Positions 321 through 6,588 of a stretch of DNA of 50,294 nt are shown piece after piece (position 1 is the stretch's first letter; every line of letters begins with the position of its first letter). Source of the stretch: an uncultured Candidatus Saccharibacteria bacterium. Lineage in GTDB: Bacteria; Patescibacteriota; Saccharimonadia; Saccharimonadales; JAGQNJ01. The position numbers and the translations under genes are program-made. The notes below the pieces were generated by a model. That model made no database searches, was not told the origin of the DNA, and worked only from the letters and a program-made list of their open reading frames with translations. Where the stretch lies: the NCBI GenBank assembly GCA_965231045.1, contig OZ246406.1, forward strand, positions 1 through 50,294, written 5' to 3'.

Positions 321-509
321 CGATCCAGGAATTGCTCACTTAACTGAGTGGTTCCTGGAAGTGTAGTTGACTAGTTATTGGTGTTTATCTATCCAGATAA
401 ATACCCGTTTGTTTAAGATTTACATCTCAAACCCGTGCCAAAGAGCGGGCATCAATCCGAGCGCCTTAGGCGTAGAAGTACCAATTTCTGCGTCATCGAG
501 ACGCAGAAA

Positions 510-622
510 TTGGTGCCCATAGCGAGAGGGAAACACCTGTTCCCATGCCGAACACAGCAGTTAAGCCTCTCAGCGGTTACAATACTTGGGTTTTAACCCT
601 GGGAAAATAGCACGGTGCCAAA
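510..622 (+). rRNA. rrf: 5S rRNA
   Basis: TTGGTG...GCCAA terminal helix; conserved CCCATGCCGAACAC and AGTTAAGC motifs; lies downstream of 23S. Confidence 0.95.
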
Positions 623-630
623 TTATGCAT

Positions 631-660
631 AAGAACCACCTTTAGGGGTGGTTCTTTGCT
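631..660 (+). terminator. rRNA operon intrinsic terminator
   Basis: 10-bp stem AAGAACCACC/GGTGGTTCTT followed by a T-rich tail directly after 5S. Confidence 0.8.
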
Positions 661-734: not shown

Positions 735-1472
735 CTAGGAGAGTTCTCTAATAAGGATGTGCAAGACCTCTATGGCTATTTTTGCTTCTTCTGGTTCAAC
801 CTTAAGGCCGCTTCTAATCTCAGCTCCCGGATGTATTAAGTTACGATATTCTCGCACAGAGTGACTTAGTTTAGCAACTCCTTTACCAACTAAAGATTCA
901 TTAACGGCCACCTCAATTAACTCATCCAGATTCCATTTACTTAAACTAGGCGCACTTGGTGCTTTTTCTGAAGCCTTTGCTATTTGCTCGTTCTTTTGCA
1001 GAAGGTCTAAAAGTATAGCTTCAATTGAACCTCCGCTAAGGATAATTGCAGACTTCCAATTTGTTGAAATAATATTTCTTTGCACTTCTAAGTAATCTCT
1101 TTCAAGTATTTTTCGCAAAGAATTTTCAGATATAAAATGGAAGCTTTTAGTATCTGTTACAGGTGTCTGTGAGTCCGTATCGACCCTTACTTTTAGAATT
1201 CCTAAGTTACGACCTATGTGTGCTTGTATCCCATCAGCTCTATAGAAAATGGAACGAACCCCATTATTGTGCGAGAAATAATCCTCTTTGTTAAAAGGGT
1301 TTAGAAGACCTGGTAAATCACTTCTTGCTTGATTTATGAATGCCTCATACTCTTTTACGAGATTTTCCTCAACCATGTGACTGTTTCCTGAGGCTCCTAC
1401 GAAAACACTTTTAATTTCTAAAAGCGCATGATAGTACTCTCGTAACTTATCATGTGAATATTCTTGTGACAT
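735..1472 (-). CDS. Hypothetical protein with C-terminal HEPN/DUF4145-like domain (putative RNase/defence protein)
   Basis: KSAIILSGGSIEAILL helix and REYRNLIHP (Rx6H) motif; TATAAT 6 nt upstream of ATG. Confidence 0.65.
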   Translation of the reverse strand: MSQEYSHDKLREYYHALLEIKSVFVGASGNSHMVEENLVKEYEAFINQARSDLPGLLNPFNKEDYFSHNNGVRSIFYRADGIQAHIGRNLGILKVRVDTDSQTPVTDTKSFHFISENSLRKILERDYLEVQRNIISTNWKSAIILSGGSIEAILLDLLQKNEQIAKASEKAPSAPSLSKWNLDELIEVAVNESLVGKGVAKLSHSVREYRNLIHPGAEIRSGLKVEPEEAKIAIEVLHILIRELS

Positions 1473-1500
1473 AACTAGATTATACGCTCAGGGGCGGGAA

Positions 1501-1524
1501 AGGGGAATTGTTGTGGGGTTACTA
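1501..1524 (+). repeat. Intergenic repeat copy R1 AGGGGAATTGTTGTGGGGTTACTA
   Basis: Direct reading; includes the stop codon of the 1522-2145 gene. Confidence 0.9.
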
Positions 1525-2145
1525 AGGTTCGAGGTAGGCGATGGTGTCAGGTAAGTTGGCTTCTTCTGGCTTATAGATCATGAGGCGTTGGGGTACATCG
1601 CAGTAAGGTTTCGGTAGGGTTTCTAGTATTTTTGGATCAACGTTTTCTACCCAGCCGGCATCTTGGTCAACCATTACATTGCCTTTGGTGCGGTGGTGTG
1701 CAAATGGCCAAAAGCTAGCCACACCGCCAGGCTTTAGAACTCGCCAAACATCATTATAAAAATCAGGCAACTCCTCTGTTAGCAGGGTATTTGGCACGCC
1801 TAGGACTGATACTACTGTGTCAAAGGATTCATCTCTAAAGGGTAGAAGGCCCTGGGCTAAGGCTGCTACTCCACCCAAATGGGCTTCTCTGGAAATTTCT
1901 CGTTCTTTACAGATGTCATCAAATGCCAGCTGAGGGTTAACAGGTACAATTAGTGTTTCGCCAACAAATTCAGGAGCTTCTATAGCAAAGCGATTTGTTT
2001 GGCCACTGCCTATATCTAGCACCCGTTTACCGGCATAGTGATCACCTGACAAACCAAGCATTGCAGCCTGCGCTGCAAAACCAGCATCACTGATGCTAAA
2101 TCTAAAAGCCCGTTCTAGCATTTCGCCTCGAGAAACTTCAGCCAT
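1522..2145 (-). CDS. Class I SAM-dependent methyltransferase
   Basis: RVLDIGSG motif I; LPFRDESFDTVVS and RVLKPGG motifs. Confidence 0.85.
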   Translation of the reverse strand: MAEVSRGEMLERAFRFSISDAGFAAQAAMLGLSGDHYAGKRVLDIGSGQTNRFAIEAPEFVGETLIVPVNPQLAFDDICKEREISREAHLGGVAALAQGLLPFRDESFDTVVSVLGVPNTLLTEELPDFYNDVWRVLKPGGVASFWPFAHHRTKGNVMVDQDAGWVENVDPKILETLPKPYCDVPQRLMIYKPEEANLPDTIAYLEP

Positions 2146-2184
2146 AATTGTAGAAGTCTAACACGCGCTCAGGCTTAAAGCACA

Positions 2185-2209
2185 AGGGGAACTGTTGGGG
2201 CGGCTACTT
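2185..2209 (+). repeat. Intergenic repeat copy R2 AGGGGAACTGTTGGGGCGGCTACTT
   Basis: Direct reading; shares AAGCACAAGGGGAACTGTTG (20 nt) with R3. Confidence 0.9.
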
Positions 2210-2241
2210 CGTGTTGAGGGTGATGGCTCGCTGCTTTATGT

Positions 2242-2832
2242 TCAAGGGCAGGCATTTGCAGCGACACGATCTGGATCACAGAGGCCACTGTTATCGAGAT
2301 CAAAGGGTGGATGGTCTTGTTTGTATTTTACGGCGAATTTATGAAACAAAATAGCTATCAATAGGATTGTAAGAATTACGGCTACGATTATCCTGACCTT
2401 TCTAGAGTAAAACTTACTTGGCATAAAGAGGTTTTTACGATTGAAAAACACGAGTAACAACGCTGTTAGCACACCCATACAAAAACTGATTACTAACAGA
2501 AACGCGATGATTCCGGTTACGCCGTAGTGAAAATAGTCGAAGTTCACATAAAGAAGGTAGGCTAGGCCAATTGAACATAACTGGCTGACCATTATAGATT
2601 GCTCAATCTTTTCAACTAATAATCTGCGTAATGAATACTTGTTTGCGTAAAAAACAGGTAGCATTAACACAACAAAGGCCAGGGCGGCTGATAAAATATA
2701 TCCACCCGCATCATTTACGAAGTTTATTAGCACATAGACAAATATAAGAACACTTGCTGCTATAGCCAAAAATGTGGCTATAAAGCTTAATGACAATGCC
2801 TTTAGAAACAGTTTAATTCCATCTTTTTGCAC
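2242..2832 (-). CDS. Hypothetical multi-pass membrane protein (about 5 TM)
   Basis: Several long hydrophobic segments; start codon uncertain. Confidence 0.75.
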   Translation of the reverse strand: MQKDGIKLFLKALSLSFIATFLAIAASVLIFVYVLINFVNDAGGYILSAALAFVVLMLPVFYANKYSLRRLLVEKIEQSIMVSQLCSIGLAYLLYVNFDYFHYGVTGIIAFLLVISFCMGVLTALLLVFFNRKNLFMPSKFYSRKVRIIVAVILTILLIAILFHKFAVKYKQDHPPFDLDNSGLCDPDRVAANACP

Positions 2833-2877
2833 TATACATAAACGATATCACACAATGCAAAAAGACATATAAGCACA

Positions 2878-2893
2878 AGGGGAACTGTTGTGG
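2878..2893 (+). repeat. Intergenic repeat copy R3 AGGGGAACTGTTGTGG
   Basis: Direct reading; lies between divergent genes. Confidence 0.9.
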
Positions 2894-2948
2894 CGCGGGG
2901 AAACAAAATACTTGTGTTTTCTGAGGCAACTTAGTGTAGACTTGTCTA

Positions 2949-3263
2949 ATGACAAAAGTTACTGATATTTATGAAGGTGGCTCGCACCAGATGAGGCACT
3001 GTGATCCATGTGAAATGCCTGAGGCAATGCAGTCCACAAGAGACCCATCCTACAGCTTGCTAAAACATGTGATTATAGAATCTAGACACTGTGCCTCCGA
3101 TCCAGAAGCCTTGGAATATATTCGAATTCAACTTGAGGCTAGAGGTGCAACGGAGGTTTTTGACGCTGCACAGAAGTGTATTCGTTGTGCTGAAGGCATG
3201 TGCCTTCTCATTAACGGTAGTGAAACAGGCTGGCAAGTAGGTGGATCACTAGCAGTTGAATAG
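2949..3263 (+). CDS. Small Cys-containing hypothetical protein
   Basis: 104-aa ORF with CDPC and CIRC pairs; TAGACT 6 nt before ATG; its TAG stop overlaps repeat R4. Confidence 0.65.
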   Translation: MTKVTDIYEGGSHQMRHCDPCEMPEAMQSTRDPSYSLLKHVIIESRHCASDPEALEYIRIQLEARGATEVFDAAQKCIRCAEGMCLLINGSETGWQVGGSLAVE

Positions 3264-3286
3264 GGGAATTGTTGTGGTGGTTACTA
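3262..3286 (+). repeat. Intergenic repeat copy R4 AGGGGAATTGTTGTGGTGGTTACTA
   Basis: Identical to R1 except one extra T; lies between convergent genes. Confidence 0.9.
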
Positions 3287-3311
3287 CGTCTAGTTGGTCG
3301 GTTCTAGAATA

Positions 3312-3638
3312 TTAGTCGCCGGCTACAAACGGAGCGACTTCTACGGTAGCCATAGCCCCAAGCGCGCCACCAACGACTGCTCCAAGGTATTTACCAACAG
3401 TATCAGCTACTTGTCCAAGTGATTGTTGTTCCGCACCTATTGATGCAAATTCATAGCCTAAGAAAGTGCCACCACCCACTAAACCAGCCCCAACCACAGC
3501 GGTTAGACCGCCTCTGGCTATCTTTACGGCCAGATGTCGACGTGTCTTGGGTTTAGCAGCTTCCTCTGCAGGAGGCTTTACTAAGGGTTCTTGTTTAGGC
3601 GCTTGTTCGCCCTGATTTTCAGTAGTCACATCAGACAC
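3312..3638 (-). CDS. Small membrane protein with two Gly-rich TM segments
   Basis: GGLTAVVGAGLVGGG and GAVVGGALGAMA helices. True start may be GTG at 3629, 7 nt after TATAGT. Confidence 0.7.
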   Translation of the reverse strand: MSDVTTENQGEQAPKQEPLVKPPAEEAAKPKTRRHLAVKIARGGLTAVVGAGLVGGGTFLGYEFASIGAEQQSLGQVADTVGKYLGAVVGGALGAMATVEVAPFVAGD

Positions 3639-3711: not shown

Positions 3712-3740
3712 TTGACATAAGCATCACTTGGTGATATCAT
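3712..3740 (+). promoter_or_regulatory. Sigma70-type promoter
   Basis: TTGACA-N17-TATCAT with TGn extension. Confidence 0.7.
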
Positions 3741-3848
3741 AAGCGGAATTCCGGAGATGGAACAGAGGGTCATACCAATTTGGTGTGGCTTTTTTTCTTT
3801 CTCTGGCATCAGAGTGGGCATTTAACACTTAAGTGGGAGGTTTCACCA

Positions 3849-4046
3849 ATGGCTGGAACTAAGCAAGGCGGCAAAGCTGCTGCTTCAACTAACAAAACCA
3901 AGTATGGTGCTGATTTTTATGCAAAGATCGGTGCTATGGGTGGTAAAAAGGGTAAAACTGGTGGATTTTACGCTAACCGTGAACTAGCTCGTGTAGCTGG
4001 TGCTAAGGGCGGACGAATTAGCCGTCGAACTAAGAAAGTTGCCTAA
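3849..4046 (+). CDS. KGG-repeat general stress protein (YciG/GsiB-like)
   Basis: FYAKIGAMGGKKG and RELARVAGAKGG repeats; GGGAGG SD before ATG 3849 (ORF-track start 3780 unlikely). Confidence 0.85.
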   Translation: MAGTKQGGKAAASTNKTKYGADFYAKIGAMGGKKGKTGGFYANRELARVAGAKGGRISRRTKKVA

Positions 4047-4058
4047 GTCGTAACTTTT

Positions 4059-4556
4059 TCAGGCAAACGTCGCTTTCGATACAGAAGGCGACGTTTTTGT
4101 TTGCTTGGTCATTCGATAGGGCCGGCAGAATCGAGATAACGATACAGCCCAGGTTGTACCACAGTTGTAGCAACTGTACTCTCGGTTATTCTGCTGGAAG
4201 CTGCGATTATTACACTTAGGGCAGGCACTTCTCTGGTGAAGCCAATCGCGGTAGGTATCCAGGCAGTCCTCGATGTGGTGATTATCAATCTCGTAGCCAT
4301 AACTCTTACCAATCTCTTTGGCCTTGTTCCAGGCTAGAGCCTCAAGCTGCAGTAACTCTAGATCAGAATCGTACGATCGGTGCTCCAATACAGCGTGTCC
4401 AAGCTCATGAAACAATGACCAGGCACCATTACCTTTGGCAATGGCCTGGCTGTTATAGATAATCTCGTGAGTTTTTGGTGACCAGCAGAATTCCTTGGCA
4501 GCCACAAAGCTGATATCTGGGTAATCACGCCGCAGTTTCTTAAGTAAGCTATCCAT
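4059..4556 (-). CDS. HExxH metallopeptidase-like protein (ImmA/IrrE-like) with C-terminal zinc ribbon
   Basis: FHELGH motif, downstream LE.LAW; CPKC...CYNC. Confidence 0.7.
   Translation of the reverse strand: MDSLLKKLRRDYPDISFVAAKEFCWSPKTHEIIYNSQAIAKGNGAWSLFHELGHAVLEHRSYDSDLELLQLEALAWNKAKEIGKSYGYEIDNHHIEDCLDTYRDWLHQRSACPKCNNRSFQQNNREYSCYNCGTTWAVSLSRFCRPYRMTKQTKTSPSVSKATFA
4065..4098. terminator. Probable bidirectional terminator between convergent genes
   Basis: AAACGTCGCTTTC / GAAGGCGACGTTT stem followed by a T tract. Confidence 0.65.
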
Positions 4557-5361
4557 TGTTTTGTTTTATCAGATCAATACAGCCATAGAGAACGGCTTCT
4601 TCGGCATGCTTGGCCGGCAGAATAGCGGGTAGGGGGTTAACCCCTAGTTTTTGCAGATCTGCTTTTAGAAGATCGCCGTAGCGTTCAAAGTGTTTGCCAG
4701 CACCACCCCCAATAACAACCGCATCAGGATGCTTCTCGCCAATTAAGCGTTTAAGGCCCAAAGCTAGATCATTACTTATCAGTGACCAAGTCTCTACATC
4801 TGTAATATCGGTGGCTTTCTTGCCATAACGCTCTTTGATCGCGCTGCCCGAAACAATAGCCTCCCACTGTACGTTTGGATCGCCATCTTTCTCGACAAAA
4901 ACTTCCAGGCCACCACGATCACGATATTCTGTATCAATTATACCATCCTCGATATAAGCAATGCCAATTCCGGTACCAAGTGTGACATATAATGTCTTTT
5001 TAAAATCATTTTTGATAAGTAATGCTTCGGAAAGACCGCCGGCTTTGGCGTCATTTTCGATAAATACTGGGCAGTTGAGTATGGCCGATACATCACTCTT
5101 TACAGGGGTATTAACCCAAAAAAGATTACCATAACGAATGCCAATGCCGTTCTTTCGGTCAACGTCTCCAGGGATAGCTATACCTGCGGCGCTGAACTTA
5201 TCCACGCCCAACTCCGGTAAGTGCTGTTTGAACAATTCTAAAAACTCCTCATACGATTCGGGGGGTGTTTCAAAGCGTACTTCTTTAATTGGGCTTCCAC
5301 CATCTTCTTCGAAGCTGGCTAGCAGTGTTTTTGTTCCTCCGACGTCTACAGCAAGATACAT
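4549..5361 (-). CDS. ROK family sugar kinase
   Basis: LAVDVGGTK, IENDAKAGGLSE, VTLGTGIG motifs. Confidence 0.9.
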   Translation of the reverse strand: MYLAVDVGGTKTLLASFEEDGGSPIKEVRFETPPESYEEFLELFKQHLPELGVDKFSAAGIAIPGDVDRKNGIGIRYGNLFWVNTPVKSDVSAILNCPVFIENDAKAGGLSEALLIKNDFKKTLYVTLGTGIGIAYIEDGIIDTEYRDRGGLEVFVEKDGDPNVQWEAIVSGSAIKERYGKKATDITDVETWSLISNDLALGLKRLIGEKHPDAVVIGGGAGKHFERYGDLLKADLQKLGVNPLPAILPAKHAEEAVLYGCIDLIKQNNG

Positions 5362-5523
5362 ATTTGTCCCCTCATAGTTAATGTTAGTTTAGCACAAATC
5401 GGGAGCTCTTTACTCTAAGAAGTAAAACAGATATAATACCCAGTAATCTTGTGGGTATCTCTGTTGGCTATTGCCTATATCGGAGTGTCCATCAGAAATA
5501 CATTAGAAGGAGGCATGTAATAC

Positions 5524-6588
5524 ATGTCAAAAAACAGCGTAACTATGGACGACTTGCTGGAGTCCACAACAATTAAACAACTAAAAACCGGAGATGTTAT
5601 CGAAGGTAGTGTGCTTTCTATCAAGAAGCACGAAGCATGGATCGATCTAGGCTCATATGGTCTAGGGATTGTCATGCGTCGCGAACTGAGTGCAGCTAAC
5701 CTCGAAGAGGGCAAGCCTGTAACAGTTAGTGTCGTTGATCCAGAGGTAGACGAAGGCTACGTGCTCCTAAGCATGCGCCGAGCCGCCAAAGACAAGGGTT
5801 GGGATGAACTACAGCGTCAGTTTGAAGCCGGTGAAATCATCGACATCATTCCTTACGATGCTAACAGAGGTGGTTTACTTATTGAAGCTGAAGGTATCCG
5901 CGGATTCTTGCCAGTTTCTCAACTTGCAGCCGGTCACTACCCACGTGTATCAGGGGCCGATAAAGATGAAATTCTACAGAAGCTTAACTCTTTGGTTAAC
6001 AAGACTCTTAAGGTACGAATCCTTGATGTCAACAAGAAGGAGAACAAGCTAATCGTATCAGAGAAAGAAGCTCTAAAAGACGAACTTCAAGATCGTTTTG
6101 CCAAACTTAAGGTTGGCGATGAGGTTGAAGGTGTTATTACCGGTGTTATTGACTTCGGTGCATTCGTTAACGTTGATAGTATTGAAGGTTTAATTCACAT
6201 CTCAGAGATTTCTTGGGAACGAGTTGAAGATCCAAAAGATTACGTTAAGGTTGGCCAACAGGTTAAAGCTAAGATTATCGCTATCGATAAAGATCGCTTG
6301 AGCTTGAGCCTCAAACAGATGAGCGAAGATCCATGGCTACACGAAGTAAAAGCTTTCAAGAAAGGCGATACTGTAGAAGGTAAGATTACTCGAATTACAC
6401 CGTTTGGTGCGTTCGTACAGTTAAGCCCGGCGGTTGAAGCTTTGGTTCACGTATCAGAGATGGGTGACGATGAAAGTATCGACCCAGAGAAGATCTTCCA
6501 ATTGAACGAAAAGAAGAAATTTACAGTACTAGATATTGATCTTGAAGGTCGCAAGATTGCACTAAGCCTAAAGGACAAGAAGAAATAA
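5524..6588 (+). CDS. rpsA: 30S ribosomal protein S1 (short form)
   Basis: Repeated S1 domains (FGAFV...GLIHISE; FGAFV...ALVHVSE); GGAGG SD. Confidence 0.92.
   Translation: MSKNSVTMDDLLESTTIKQLKTGDVIEGSVLSIKKHEAWIDLGSYGLGIVMRRELSAANLEEGKPVTVSVVDPEVDEGYVLLSMRRAAKDKGWDELQRQFEAGEIIDIIPYDANRGGLLIEAEGIRGFLPVSQLAAGHYPRVSGADKDEILQKLNSLVNKTLKVRILDVNKKENKLIVSEKEALKDELQDRFAKLKVGDEVEGVITGVIDFGAFVNVDSIEGLIHISEISWERVEDPKDYVKVGQQVKAKIIAIDKDRLSLSLKQMSEDPWLHEVKAFKKGDTVEGKITRITPFGAFVQLSPAVEALVHVSEMGDDESIDPEKIFQLNEKKKFTVLDIDLEGRKIALSLKDKKK

What the first reader, a model, noticed from the sequence alone, without database searches (positions are those of the whole stretch)
1501..3286. Candidate new gene-cassette array: one gene per interval between four same-orientation 16-bp sites, no integrase in view
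Seen: AGGGGAAYTGTTGKGG occurs at 1501, 2185, 2878 and 3262 and nowhere else that I noticed in 50 kb. Three copies continue (N)GGYTACT. Intervals of 684, 693 and 384 bp each hold exactly one unrelated ORF (methyltransferase, membrane protein, Cys protein), with single genes on either side. The motif keeps its orientation whether flanking genes are tandem (R1, R2), divergent (R3) or convergent (R4), which argues against a promoter or terminator. Stop codons are built into sites: the TAG of 1522-2145 lies in R1 and the TAG of 2949-3263 overlaps R4. Most genes have their own -10 box. Established: integron cassettes also embed stops in their sites, but attC is palindromic with GTTRRRY cores, which this is not. 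Inference: an integron-like capture system using a non-palindromic site and a recombinase in trans, parked behind the rRNA operon.
Basis: partly seen in the sequence, partly recalled or inferred. Interest (0 to 1): 0.85.

Follow-up and report, generated by a model that had tools for sequence, protein, structure and literature searches.

The report
Repeat-bounded one-gene units behind rRNA genes
A small Saccharibacteria genome has a row of single accessory genes just after its ribosomal RNA genes, each separated by the same 16-base word, and a closely related strain carries different genes between copies of that word, so it marks where genes are swapped in and out by a mechanism not yet identified.

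Summary
AGGGGAAYTGTTGKGG occurs at 1501, 2185, 2878 and 3262, all on the + strand. It occurs nowhere else in the 840-kb single-contig genome.

The four copies lie in a hypervariable slot between the 5S rRNA gene and a conserved KGG / M78-peptidase / ROK-kinase block. In 18 family genomes this slot ranges from 244 bp to 5.4 kb.

A sister strain (contigs L204 and L227) has a different array at the same place, with four motif copies in the same orientation.
- Homology of the shared methyltransferase unit ends 3 nt after the core.
- The window's membrane-protein unit behaves as a clean insertion or deletion flanked by a 25-bp direct repeat that is single-copy in L204.
- One ORF is replaced between conserved boundaries.

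Shared units are 5-7 times more diverged at synonymous sites than the flanking core genes. Another genus (G010) has an exact copy and a 13/16 copy at the same locus, bounding unrelated genes.

The integron mechanism is not supported. The site has no hairpin and no useful dyad. The genome has one Xer-type tyrosine recombinase and no serine, IS110, Y1 or rve enzyme.

My best reading is boundary repeats that mediate modular shuffling of one-gene units. A recombinase acting in trans remains possible. Tests for excised circles could not be run.

The parts
509..623 (+). 5S rRNA gene, the conserved left anchor of the variable slot. The 3' end of 23S is at 1-322.
   Evidence: Rfam RF00001 at 89.6 bits and RF02541 at 310 bits. 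The order 23S-5S...KGG-M78-ROK was seen in all 21 family loci fetched; the M78 anchor was found in 23 of 24 family genomes.
631..656 (+). Hairpin plus T-run terminator after 5S. A second hairpin follows at about 664-688.
   Evidence: Terminator scan and sequence.
735..1472 (-). Leftmost unit: a 245-aa HEPN/DUF4145-like gene, with TATAAT 6 nt upstream of its ATG.
   Evidence: ORF list. Weak Pfam DUF4145 hit, E 0.0015. Absent from the same slot in relatives.
1501..1524 (+). R1: 16-bp core (1501-1516) plus the GGTTACTA arm, which holds the methyltransferase stop codon.
   Evidence: Its counterpart in the sister strain is a degenerate copy, AGGGGCTGTTGTAAGGTTA (reverse-complemented L204 1344-1362), which also holds that gene's stop.
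1522..2145 (-). Unit 1: 207-aa class-I SAM methyltransferase.
   Evidence: Pfam Methyltransf_11, 6e-9. Window 1528-2203 matches L204 at 81.7%. dS is 0.88 against 0.09-0.28 for core genes, and dN/dS is about 0.1.
2178..2202 (+). R2: 25-bp boundary repeat with core at 2185-2200.
   Evidence: Homology to the sister strain ends 3 nt after the core.
2242..2832 (-). Unit 2: 196-aa multi-pass membrane ORFan, flanked by the 25-bp direct repeat R2/R3.
   Evidence: Only self-hits among 5.8 billion proteins. Absent in L204, where the R2-left and R3-right flanks are joined through one repeat copy.
2871..2895 (+). R3: 25-bp boundary repeat with core at 2878-2893, at a divergent junction.
2949..3263 (+). 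Unit 3: 104-aa Cys-rich ORFan. In L204 a 237-aa methyltransferase-like ORF takes its place between the same boundaries.
3262..3308 (+). R4: core (3262-3277) plus a long right arm, TGGTTACTACGTCTAGTTGG..., at a convergent junction.
   Evidence: It is 89% identical to L204 copy M4 and 88.6% identical (35 nt, window 3264-3298) to M3.
3312..3638 (-). Rightmost unit: 108-aa Gly-rich two-TM protein (p108).
   Evidence: 95% amino-acid identity to the L204 homologue, with dS 0.58.
3712..4046 (+). Conserved right anchor. It comprises the KGG promoter (TTGACA-17-TATCAT), a 10-bp palindrome CGGAATTCCG at about +1, a hairpin plus T-run at 3764-3794, and the KGG stress-protein gene at 3849-4046.
   Evidence: 98.8% identical to L204.
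4059..4556 (-). M78/ImmA-like peptidase with a zinc ribbon. This core gene was used as the synteny anchor.

Best explanation
**What it is.** The 16-bp word is the conserved core of a 25-45-bp boundary element with consensus AAGCAyA-AGGGGAAyTGTTGkGG-nGGTTACTACGTCTAG. This element separates one-gene units in a strain-variable array placed directly behind the 23S-5S rRNA genes.

**Shown by comparison.**
- Units are gained, lost and replaced at this element.
- Shared units have an older history than the flanking core genes.
- The element keeps one orientation relative to the rRNA genes, whatever the direction of the neighbouring genes.
- The element supplies stop codons to ORFs that run into it.

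**Inferred mechanism.**
- The repeated elements act as portable joints. Recombination between two direct copies removes a unit plus one copy.
- Incoming DNA that carries units bounded by the same element is joined in at a resident copy. Saccharibacteria are naturally competent, so such DNA can enter.
- Whole-array exchange can use the highly conserved rRNA and KGG flanks.
- This works like the PeSL 'mobile regulatory cassettes' of T4-type phages, rather than like an integron with its own integrase.
- The core's strong conservation suggests it is also bound by some protein, but none was identified.

**Odds.**
- The element marks the exchange points of units: about 0.8.
- The exchange is driven by the repeats and general recombination, rather than by a dedicated site-specific enzyme: about 0.45-0.5.
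For: **Locus-specific and real.**
- The four copies are significant and unique in the genome.
- This is the only non-coding clustered repeat array in the genome.

**Hypervariable slot.**
- The 5S-to-KGG distance ranges from 244 bp to 5,390 bp in 18 family genomes.
- None of the window's five genes is found in that slot in relatives.

**Sister strain L204/L227.**
- Core DNA is 96.5% identical to the window.
- Its array is 141(-) | memb185(+) | M1 | MTase(-) | M2 | 237(+) | M3 | 185(-) | M4 | DUF1801(-) | p108(-) | ADK(+), with all four motif copies on the + strand.
- Homology of the methyltransferase unit runs from its stop, at the degenerate M1, to 3 nt past the R2/M2 core.
- The L204 junction aligns colinearly with the window's R2-left plus R3-right flanks. 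The 693-bp membrane-gene unit plus one 25-bp repeat is therefore a clean insertion or deletion.
- The Cys ORF and the 237-aa ORF replace each other between the motif-plus-promoter on one side and the stop-plus-motif on the other.

**Independent history of units.** dS is 0.88 for the methyltransferase and 0.58 for p108, against 0.09-0.28 for KGG, ROK, S1 and M78. Selection on the methyltransferase is purifying.

**Conservation of the element.**
- The R2/M2 element is 24/25 identical although 52% of neighbouring synonymous sites differ.
- Genus G010 has an exact 16-mer and a 13/16 copy at the same locus, in the same orientation, bounding unrelated genes.
- G001 has a degenerate copy at a convergent junction.

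**Against a dedicated enzyme.**
- The genome has one Xer-type recombinase and no serine, IS110, Y1 or rve enzyme.
- The site shows no fold.
- Insertions and deletions not bounded by the motif occur at the same locus.

**From the literature.**
- Natural competence and homologous integration are documented in Saccharibacteria (PMC10633639).
- Recombination between short regulatory repeats shuffles ORFan genes and yields mini-circles in T4-type phages (PMC2839356).
Against: - A 16-25-bp repeat is short for RecA-type recombination.
- Homologous recombination cannot move a 16-bp word between genera without flanking homology. Yet G010 shares the exact core and nothing around it.
- The distribution is patchy. 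The motif is absent in 399 of 401 genomes of the order and in the near relatives L226 and L207. Together with the perfect core, this looks more like a mobile system, or an accessory binding protein, than vertical inheritance.
- No rearranged form was seen among the contigs of the window's own strain.
- Only two array types could be compared.
- No function of the core itself was demonstrated.
Confidence: 0.5

Rival explanations
1. Integron-like site-specific system. A recombinase supplied in trans cuts and joins at a fixed position in the non-palindromic core. Units would be excised as circles and inserted at resident copies. The enzyme could come from a lost or extrachromosomal element, belong to an unknown enzyme family, or be the housekeeping Xer.
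For: - The orientation is strictly conserved in four arrays.
- The exact 16-bp core is shared by two genera with no flanking homology.
- The distribution is patchy.
- A clean one-unit difference is flanked by a 25-bp direct repeat.
- Units are compact, with stop codons inside the site.
- The cargo is mostly ORFans.
Against: - The 98.5%-complete single-contig genome has no integrase other than one Xer-type enzyme, which is universal in the family. It has no serine recombinase and no IS110, Y1-HUH or rve transposase.
- The site has no hairpin on either strand.
- It has no dyad beyond a 5-bp CACAA/TTGTG seen in some copies only.
- No dif-like relative of the motif exists elsewhere in the genome.
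- The extended motif gave no hits in viral contigs.
- Units carry their own promoters and point both ways.
- The DUF1801 and ADK differences at the same locus lack the motif.
Confidence: 0.28
2. The core is mainly a protein-binding regulatory site specific to this locus. It could be an insulator or a polar roadblock against read-through from the rRNA genes, or the operator of a local regulator. Its coincidence with breakpoints would then be secondary: each unit needs one copy, and repeats recombine as a by-product.
For: - The core is much more conserved than neighbouring neutral sites.
- Its orientation is fixed relative to the rRNA transcription direction in all arrays.
- It lies 18 nt upstream of a -35 box at three + strand promoters: R3, L204 M2 and G010 site A.
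- Its left half, AAGGGGAAYT, resembles the AAGCGGAATT half of the palindrome at the KGG promoter start.
Against: - No regulon exists elsewhere in the genome.
- Four of twelve copies sit at stop/stop junctions with no promoter nearby.
- Two strong hairpin terminators already follow 5S.
- Most relatives manage the same slot without the motif.
- No candidate binding protein was identified.
Confidence: 0.15
3. Neutral leftovers: the copies are decaying remnants of one duplicated intergenic segment and play no role in either recombination or regulation.
For: The copies carry different subsets of the arms, as decaying duplicates would.
Against: - The exact core is shared across genera.
- R2 and M2 are 24/25 identical next to sites with pS 0.52.
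- Breakpoints coincide with the element.
Confidence: 0.05

Closest known systems
PeSLs (promoter-early stem-loops), the mobile regulatory cassettes of T4-type phages (Arbiol et al. 2010, PMC2839356)
   Same: Short conserved intergenic repeats bound small, mostly ORFan genes in a hyperplastic region. Close relatives differ by insertion, deletion and replacement of genes between the repeats. No dedicated recombinase is involved.
   Different: PeSLs are a strong promoter plus a stem-loop terminator, and they occur in a phage. Here the core has no stem-loop, is not itself a promoter, keeps one orientation while the genes point both ways, and lies in a bacterial chromosome. Mini-circles were not tested.
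Integrons and CALINs (IntI, attI, attC cassette arrays)
   Same: An array of one-gene units is separated by same-orientation sites. The cargo is ORFan-rich and varies between strains. Some stop codons lie in the site.
   Different: There is no IntI: the integron-integrase model scores 146 bits against a cut-off of 265. The site has no folded attC-like hairpin and no GTTRRRY core. Units have their own promoters and either orientation. No attI/Pc platform is present.
Hypervariable regions next to rRNA genes in streamlined genomes. Examples are the SAR11 HVRs 'flanked by rRNA operons' (cited in bioRxiv 10.64898/2026.04.03.716430) and the Chlamydia suis rrn-nqrF plasticity zone (PMC10715202).
   Same: A strain-variable island is anchored on the highly conserved rRNA genes. 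Its content is replaced between relatives while the flanks stay syntenic.
   Different: As far as I could check, those regions are not described as divided into one-gene units by a repeated, oriented boundary word.
Xer-dependent modules (IMEX elements at dif; pdif modules of Acinetobacter plasmids). This comparison is from my own knowledge.
   Same: Small gene modules are bounded by repeated short recombination sites and are moved by a housekeeping recombinase.
   Different: dif-type sites have two inverted 11-bp arms around a 6-8-bp spacer, and pdif sites alternate in orientation. Here the site has no such dyad and all copies are direct. The locus is not at the terminus: ori is near 690 kb and ter near 195 kb. 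No dif-like relative of the motif exists elsewhere.
   Same: Same phylum and same architecture: one-gene units, same-strand repeats, and no integron parts.
   Different: The repeat is a different word, since no shared sequence was found by look-up. I could not inspect that locus, so the link is only a lead.

Membership tests
Integron / CALIN | IntI-type tyrosine recombinase (integron) next to the array | tested here: not met
   The genome has one tyrosine recombinase, at 786 kb. It scores as XerC/XerD/XerA type (235-254 bits); the integron-integrase model TIGR02249 gives 146 bits against a cut-off of 265.
Integron / CALIN | attC sites: imperfect inverted repeats (R''-L''...L'-R') that fold as single-stranded hairpins, with a GTTRRRY core | tested here: not met
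   ssDNA folds of 68-71 nt around R1-R4 on both strands give z-scores from -1.1 to +0.2. The core reads GTTGKGG, which does not fit GTTRRRY.
Integron / CALIN | Cassette content and order differ between related genomes, with sites at the boundaries | tested here: met
   Comparison of the window with L204/L227.
PeSL-type mobile regulatory cassettes | The repeat is a sigma-70 promoter plus a stem-loop terminator | tested here: not met
   There is no stem-loop. Promoter-like hexamers lie beside the core, not in it, and only at some copies.
PeSL-type mobile regulatory cassettes | Insertions, deletions and replacements of small ORFan genes between repeats distinguish close relatives | tested here: met
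PeSL-type mobile regulatory cassettes | Mini-circles formed by exchange between neighbouring repeats | not testable with these tools
Xer/dif-dependent modules (IMEX, pdif) | A 28-31-bp site with two inverted recombinase-binding arms that resembles the chromosome's dif | tested here: not met
   There is no dyad beyond 5 bp in some copies. No related site exists elsewhere in the genome at up to 8 mismatches in 25-27 nt. The locus is far from the skew-inferred terminus.
Dispersed repeats (REP/BIME, MITE, uptake sequences) | Many copies scattered over the genome | tested here: not met
   All copies lie within 1.8 kb. The motif is absent from 399 of 401 genomes of the order.
rRNA-anchored hypervariable region | A strain- and species-variable gene set between conserved rRNA genes and a conserved core block | tested here: met
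   Synteny in the family genomes, a slot of 244-5,390 bp, and gene content that differs among relatives (only patchily shared) and is unique to the window's genome.

The most novel reading that the evidence does not exclude
Saccharibacteria may possess a gene-cassette system of their own. In this reading, short non-palindromic, lineage-specific boundary words (this 16-mer here, a 22-mer in another genome noted by this scan) are recognised by a recombinase that is not yet identified. That enzyme might be the single Xer or a new family. It would capture, excise and reorder single promoter-bearing genes at hot spots anchored on the rRNA genes. This would be a functional analogue of integrons in ultra-small episymbiotic bacteria.
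Probability: 0.25. Interest if true: 0.85.

Novelty: new variant of a known kind. Interest (0 to 1): 0.62.

Why it matters
Episymbiotic bacteria with genomes under 1 Mb have very few classical mobile elements, yet they must keep renewing their accessory genes. A compact, repeat-delimited slot behind the rRNA genes would show how they do this. Single genes, each with its own promoter, are exchanged between strains there.

The slot would also give a natural, probably neutral, docking site for genetic engineering of Saccharibacteria. If a dedicated enzyme recognises the non-palindromic core, it would be a new site-specific recombination system.

Tried and rejected
**Genome-wide regulon or uptake sequence: rejected.** There are no other copies, and the sub-motifs occur at chance level.

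**Replication terminus, Ter or dif site: rejected.** dnaA is at 671 kb, the skew minimum is near 690 kb and the maximum near 195 kb. The near-match at 170.5 kb is coding.

**ECF-type or phage-type promoter reading of the core.**
- The pattern GGAAY-N18-GTT appears in some copies. I considered this from the sequence alone.
- On the + strand it fits R1, R2 and R4 only loosely, and it would drive antisense RNA.
- In the minus-strand reading it fails at R4, G010 and G001. I dropped the idea.

**Rho-type C-rich terminator on the minus strand.** This fails in G010, where the neighbouring genes are on the + strand.

**Conserved mini-ORF (SD-like AGGGG, then TTG TGG...).** The peptides share only the M-W forced by the motif itself. 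I dropped the idea.

**Searches that returned only chance hits or nothing.**
- Rfam found nothing in the array or in L204.
- Public scans for the motif in 185k species genomes, JGI metagenomes and viral contigs gave only chance hits in unrelated high-GC or other taxa.

**Search for further array types.** Exact-protein look-ups for the methyltransferase, p108 and M78 variants found only the window type, the L204/L227 type and a motif-free relative, L226.

**Promoter homology to the right of R3 and M2.** It is only marginal (p about 0.04), so I do not build on it.

**Read-level search for circles or deletions.** I did not pass run names to read laying by another route.
Full report
**1. The observation**

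- AGGGGAAYTGTTGKGG occurs at 1501, 2185, 2878 and 3262, all on the + strand. Shuffles expect 0.09 matches, and none of 100 shuffles reached four. Spacings are 684, 693 and 384 bp.
- The window is bases 1-50294 of a single 840,197-bp contig. In that whole genome the only other match with up to two mismatches lies inside a 378-aa coding frame at 170.5 kb.
- R1, R2 and R4 continue with (N)GGYTACT.
- R2 and R3 share a longer 25-bp repeat, AAGCACAAGGGGAACTGTTG[G/T]GGCG.
- One ORF lies in each interval:
  - a class-I SAM methyltransferase (Pfam 6e-9);
  - a 196-aa membrane protein with no relatives in 5.8 billion proteins;
  - a 104-aa Cys-rich ORFan.
- The flanking units are a HEPN/DUF4145-like gene (weak hit) and a 108-aa Gly-rich membrane protein, here called p108.
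- The methyltransferase stop lies in the R1 arm, and the Cys-protein TAG overlaps R4.
- The 20 Logan/JGI contig loci returned by two look-ups, from several studies, are 99.75-100% identical and colinear with the window. The array is therefore not an assembly artefact. Some contigs appear in both look-ups.

**2. Setting**

- The array fills the space between the 5S rRNA gene (509-623) and a conserved block: KGG stress protein, M78-like zinc-ribbon peptidase and ROK kinase.
- The M78 anchor is found in 23 of 24 family genomes, and the order 23S-5S...KGG-M78-ROK is seen in the 21 family loci fetched.
- The space between 5S and KGG varies from 244 bp (G003, essentially empty) to 5,390 bp in 18 genomes.
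- None of the window's five genes is present there in any relative. Other genera share a different, patchy set of genes.
- The locus is thus a hypervariable slot anchored on the rRNA genes. This situation is known from streamlined genomes such as SAR11 (bioRxiv 10.64898/2026.04.03.716430).
- By GC skew and dnaA, the locus is neither at the origin nor at the terminus.

**3. Distribution of the motif**

- Among 401 genomes of the order, the 15-mer occurs only in the window's genome (four times) and in G010, a different genus (once).
- G010 has the exact 16-mer and a 13/16 copy 493 bp apart. They lie in the same slot and in the same orientation relative to the rRNA genes. Each follows the stop of one + strand gene and precedes the promoter of the next.
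- The same-genus genome G001 has a degenerate copy, AGGGGAATTGT---GGGGTTA, squeezed into a 19-bp convergent spacer. The TAA of the minus-strand gene lies in the GGTTA arm.
- Relaxed searches over 61 kb of variable slots found the motif nowhere else.
- Scans of 185k species genomes, JGI metagenome contigs and viral contigs gave only chance hits.

**4. The decisive comparison**

- A search for relatives of the M78 anchor found a 98%-identical protein on a 29-kb Logan contig, L204. A second contig of the same type, L227, was also found.
- Core DNA of L204 is 96.5% identical to the window, but the slot differs.
  - Window: 5S | HEPN(-) | R1 | MTase(-) | R2 | memb196(-) | R3 | Cys(+) | R4 | p108(-) | KGG.
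  - L204: 5S | 141(-) | memb185(+) | M1 | MTase(-) | M2 | 237-aa MTase-like(+) | M3 | 185(-) | M4 | DUF1801(-) | p108(-) | ADK(+) | KGG.
- M1-M4 are motif copies in the same orientation. M2 is exact, M4 has one change, M3 has two changes, and M1 is degenerate with a 2-nt gap.
- The breakpoints sit at the element:
  - The methyltransferase unit is homologous from its stop (inside R1/M1) to 3 nt past the R2/M2 core, and not beyond.
  - The L204 junction MTase-M2-promoter aligns colinearly with the window's R2-left flank joined to its R3-right flank. The 693-bp membrane-gene unit plus one 25-bp repeat is therefore a clean insertion or deletion. L204 shows the single-copy form.
  - The Cys ORF and the 237-aa ORF replace each other between the motif-plus-leaderless-promoter on the left and the stop-overlapping motif on the right.
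  - L204 has one extra unit, 185(-) plus M4.
- Two further differences are not bounded by the motif. DUF1801 is flanked by an imperfect 11-12-nt repeat, CTAGAWATCTTA. ADK is the other.
- Another near relative, L226, and also L207, have other genes in the slot and no motif.

**5. History of the units**

| Gene (window vs L204) | Class | dS |
|---|---|---|
| methyltransferase | shared unit | 0.88 |
| p108 | shared unit | 0.58 |
| KGG | flanking core | 0.09 |
| ROK | flanking core | 0.12 |
| S1 | flanking core | 0.13 |
| M78 | flanking core | 0.28 |

- dN/dS for the methyltransferase is about 0.1.
- The alleles in the array are therefore much older than the split of the two strains. They appear to have been exchanged with more distant lineages.
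- Against this background, the 25-bp R2/M2 element is 24/25 identical. It is either constrained or kept uniform among copies.

**6. Anatomy of the element**

- An alignment of ten copies gives AAGCAyA-AGGGGAAyTGTTGkGG-nGGTTACTACGTCTAG, with TGTTG invariant.
- Copies carry different subsets of the arms:
  - The left arm AAGCAyA goes with a minus-strand gene start on the left (R2, R3, M2, M4).
  - The right arm goes with a minus-strand gene end on the right. Its complement reads TAG-TAA in frame. Three different genes stop in it: the window methyltransferase, the L204 methyltransferase and the G001 143-aa gene.
- On the other side, the TAG or TAA of + strand genes overlaps the first bases of the core (R4, M3).
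- Copies occur at tandem, divergent and convergent junctions. Four of twelve have no gene start beside them.
- Neither strand folds better than shuffled sequence (z from -1.1 to +0.2).
- The only dyad is a 5-bp CACAA/TTGTG, present in some copies.

**7. Enzymes**

- The window's genome has a single tyrosine recombinase, at 786 kb. A corresponding enzyme is present in all 24 family genomes, and NCBIfam scores the window's enzyme as Xer type, not as an integron integrase.
- It has no serine recombinase. G010 likewise has none.
- The window's genome, G001 and G010 have no IS110, Y1-HUH or rve transposase.
- No dif-like relative of the motif exists elsewhere in the genome.
- Unknown enzyme families, or an enzyme supplied by an extrachromosomal element, cannot be excluded.

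**8. Interpretation**

- Shown:
  - The element marks the points at which one-gene units differ between relatives.
  - The units have their own evolutionary history.
  - The element is conserved and oriented.
  - None of an integron's defining parts is present.
- Inferred: how the exchange happens.
- I favour repeat-mediated modular shuffling, at about 0.45-0.5. Four lines of evidence point this way:
  - No dedicated enzyme or recombinase-type site architecture was found.
  - Events not bounded by the motif occur at the same locus.
  - Natural competence with homologous integration is documented in the phylum (PMC10633639).
  - There is a precedent in T4-type phages, where short regulatory repeats shuffle ORFan genes and even form mini-circles (PMC2839356).
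- The main rival, at about 0.28, is a site-specific system with an enzyme acting in trans. It explains better the exact core shared by two genera without flanking homology, the patchy distribution, and the short length of the repeat.
- A mainly regulatory or insulator role for the core, at about 0.15, is compatible with either reading.

**9. Limits**

- Only two array types with shared units were available.
- All contigs of the window's own strain show one order.
- An earlier AI note (e1-5251702) describes a similar repeat-bounded array with a different word in another Saccharibacteria genome. I treat it as a lead that the architecture may be more general, not as evidence.
- I found no description of such arrays in Saccharibacteria in the literature searches.

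Noticed in passing
window 3712-3848: Upstream of the KGG stress-protein gene there is a near-consensus promoter (TTGACA-17-TATCAT). A perfect 10-bp palindrome, CGGAATTCCG, sits at about +1, followed by a 14-pair hairpin plus T-run (3764-3794) ahead of the ribosome-binding site. The whole leader is conserved across most genomes of the family and has no Rfam match. It looks like an operator plus attenuator or an unknown leader RNA.
   Followed up: partly
window 1472-1490, 2145-2165, 2925-2951; L011 2354-2392: Array genes have a -10-like box only 6-9 nt upstream of the ATG and no Shine-Dalgarno sequence. Examples are TATAAT-6-ATG, TAGACT-9-ATG and TAATAT-6-ATG. This suggests leaderless mRNAs for the accessory units, whereas KGG has a long leader with GGGAGG.
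   Followed up: no
L204 10047-10460 (reverse-complemented L204 3459-3872): The DUF1801 gene present in the sister strain and absent in the window is flanked by an imperfect 11-12-nt direct repeat (CTAGATATCTTA / GTAGAATCTTA) that includes the stop codon of each downstream gene. This is a second kind of insertion junction, free of the motif, at the same locus.
   Followed up: partly
window 4059-6588 vs L204: Synonymous divergence is higher in M78 (0.28), which lies close to the array, than in ROK (0.12) and S1 (0.13) further away. Recombination tracts entering the flank could produce this. KGG, the gene nearest the array, has few sites and dS 0.09, so it does not fit a simple gradient.
   Followed up: no
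L172 (G002) 412-1209 and L180 (G009) 186-988: In two relatives the match to the 3' end of 23S is split by about 800 bp, at the position that corresponds to window base 90. This suggests an intron or intervening sequence in 23S rRNA that the window's genome lacks.
   Followed up: no
L168 (G015), first 135 nt after 5S: A stretch of at least 25 bp just after the 5S gene recurs 121 bp downstream in this relative.
   Followed up: no
window 735-1472: The leftmost unit is a 245-aa protein with a weak DUF4145 (HEPN-superfamily) match in its C-terminal half and an R-x6-H motif. It converges on the rRNA genes and is absent from all relatives' slots, so it may be a solitary defence-type gene.
   Followed up: partly
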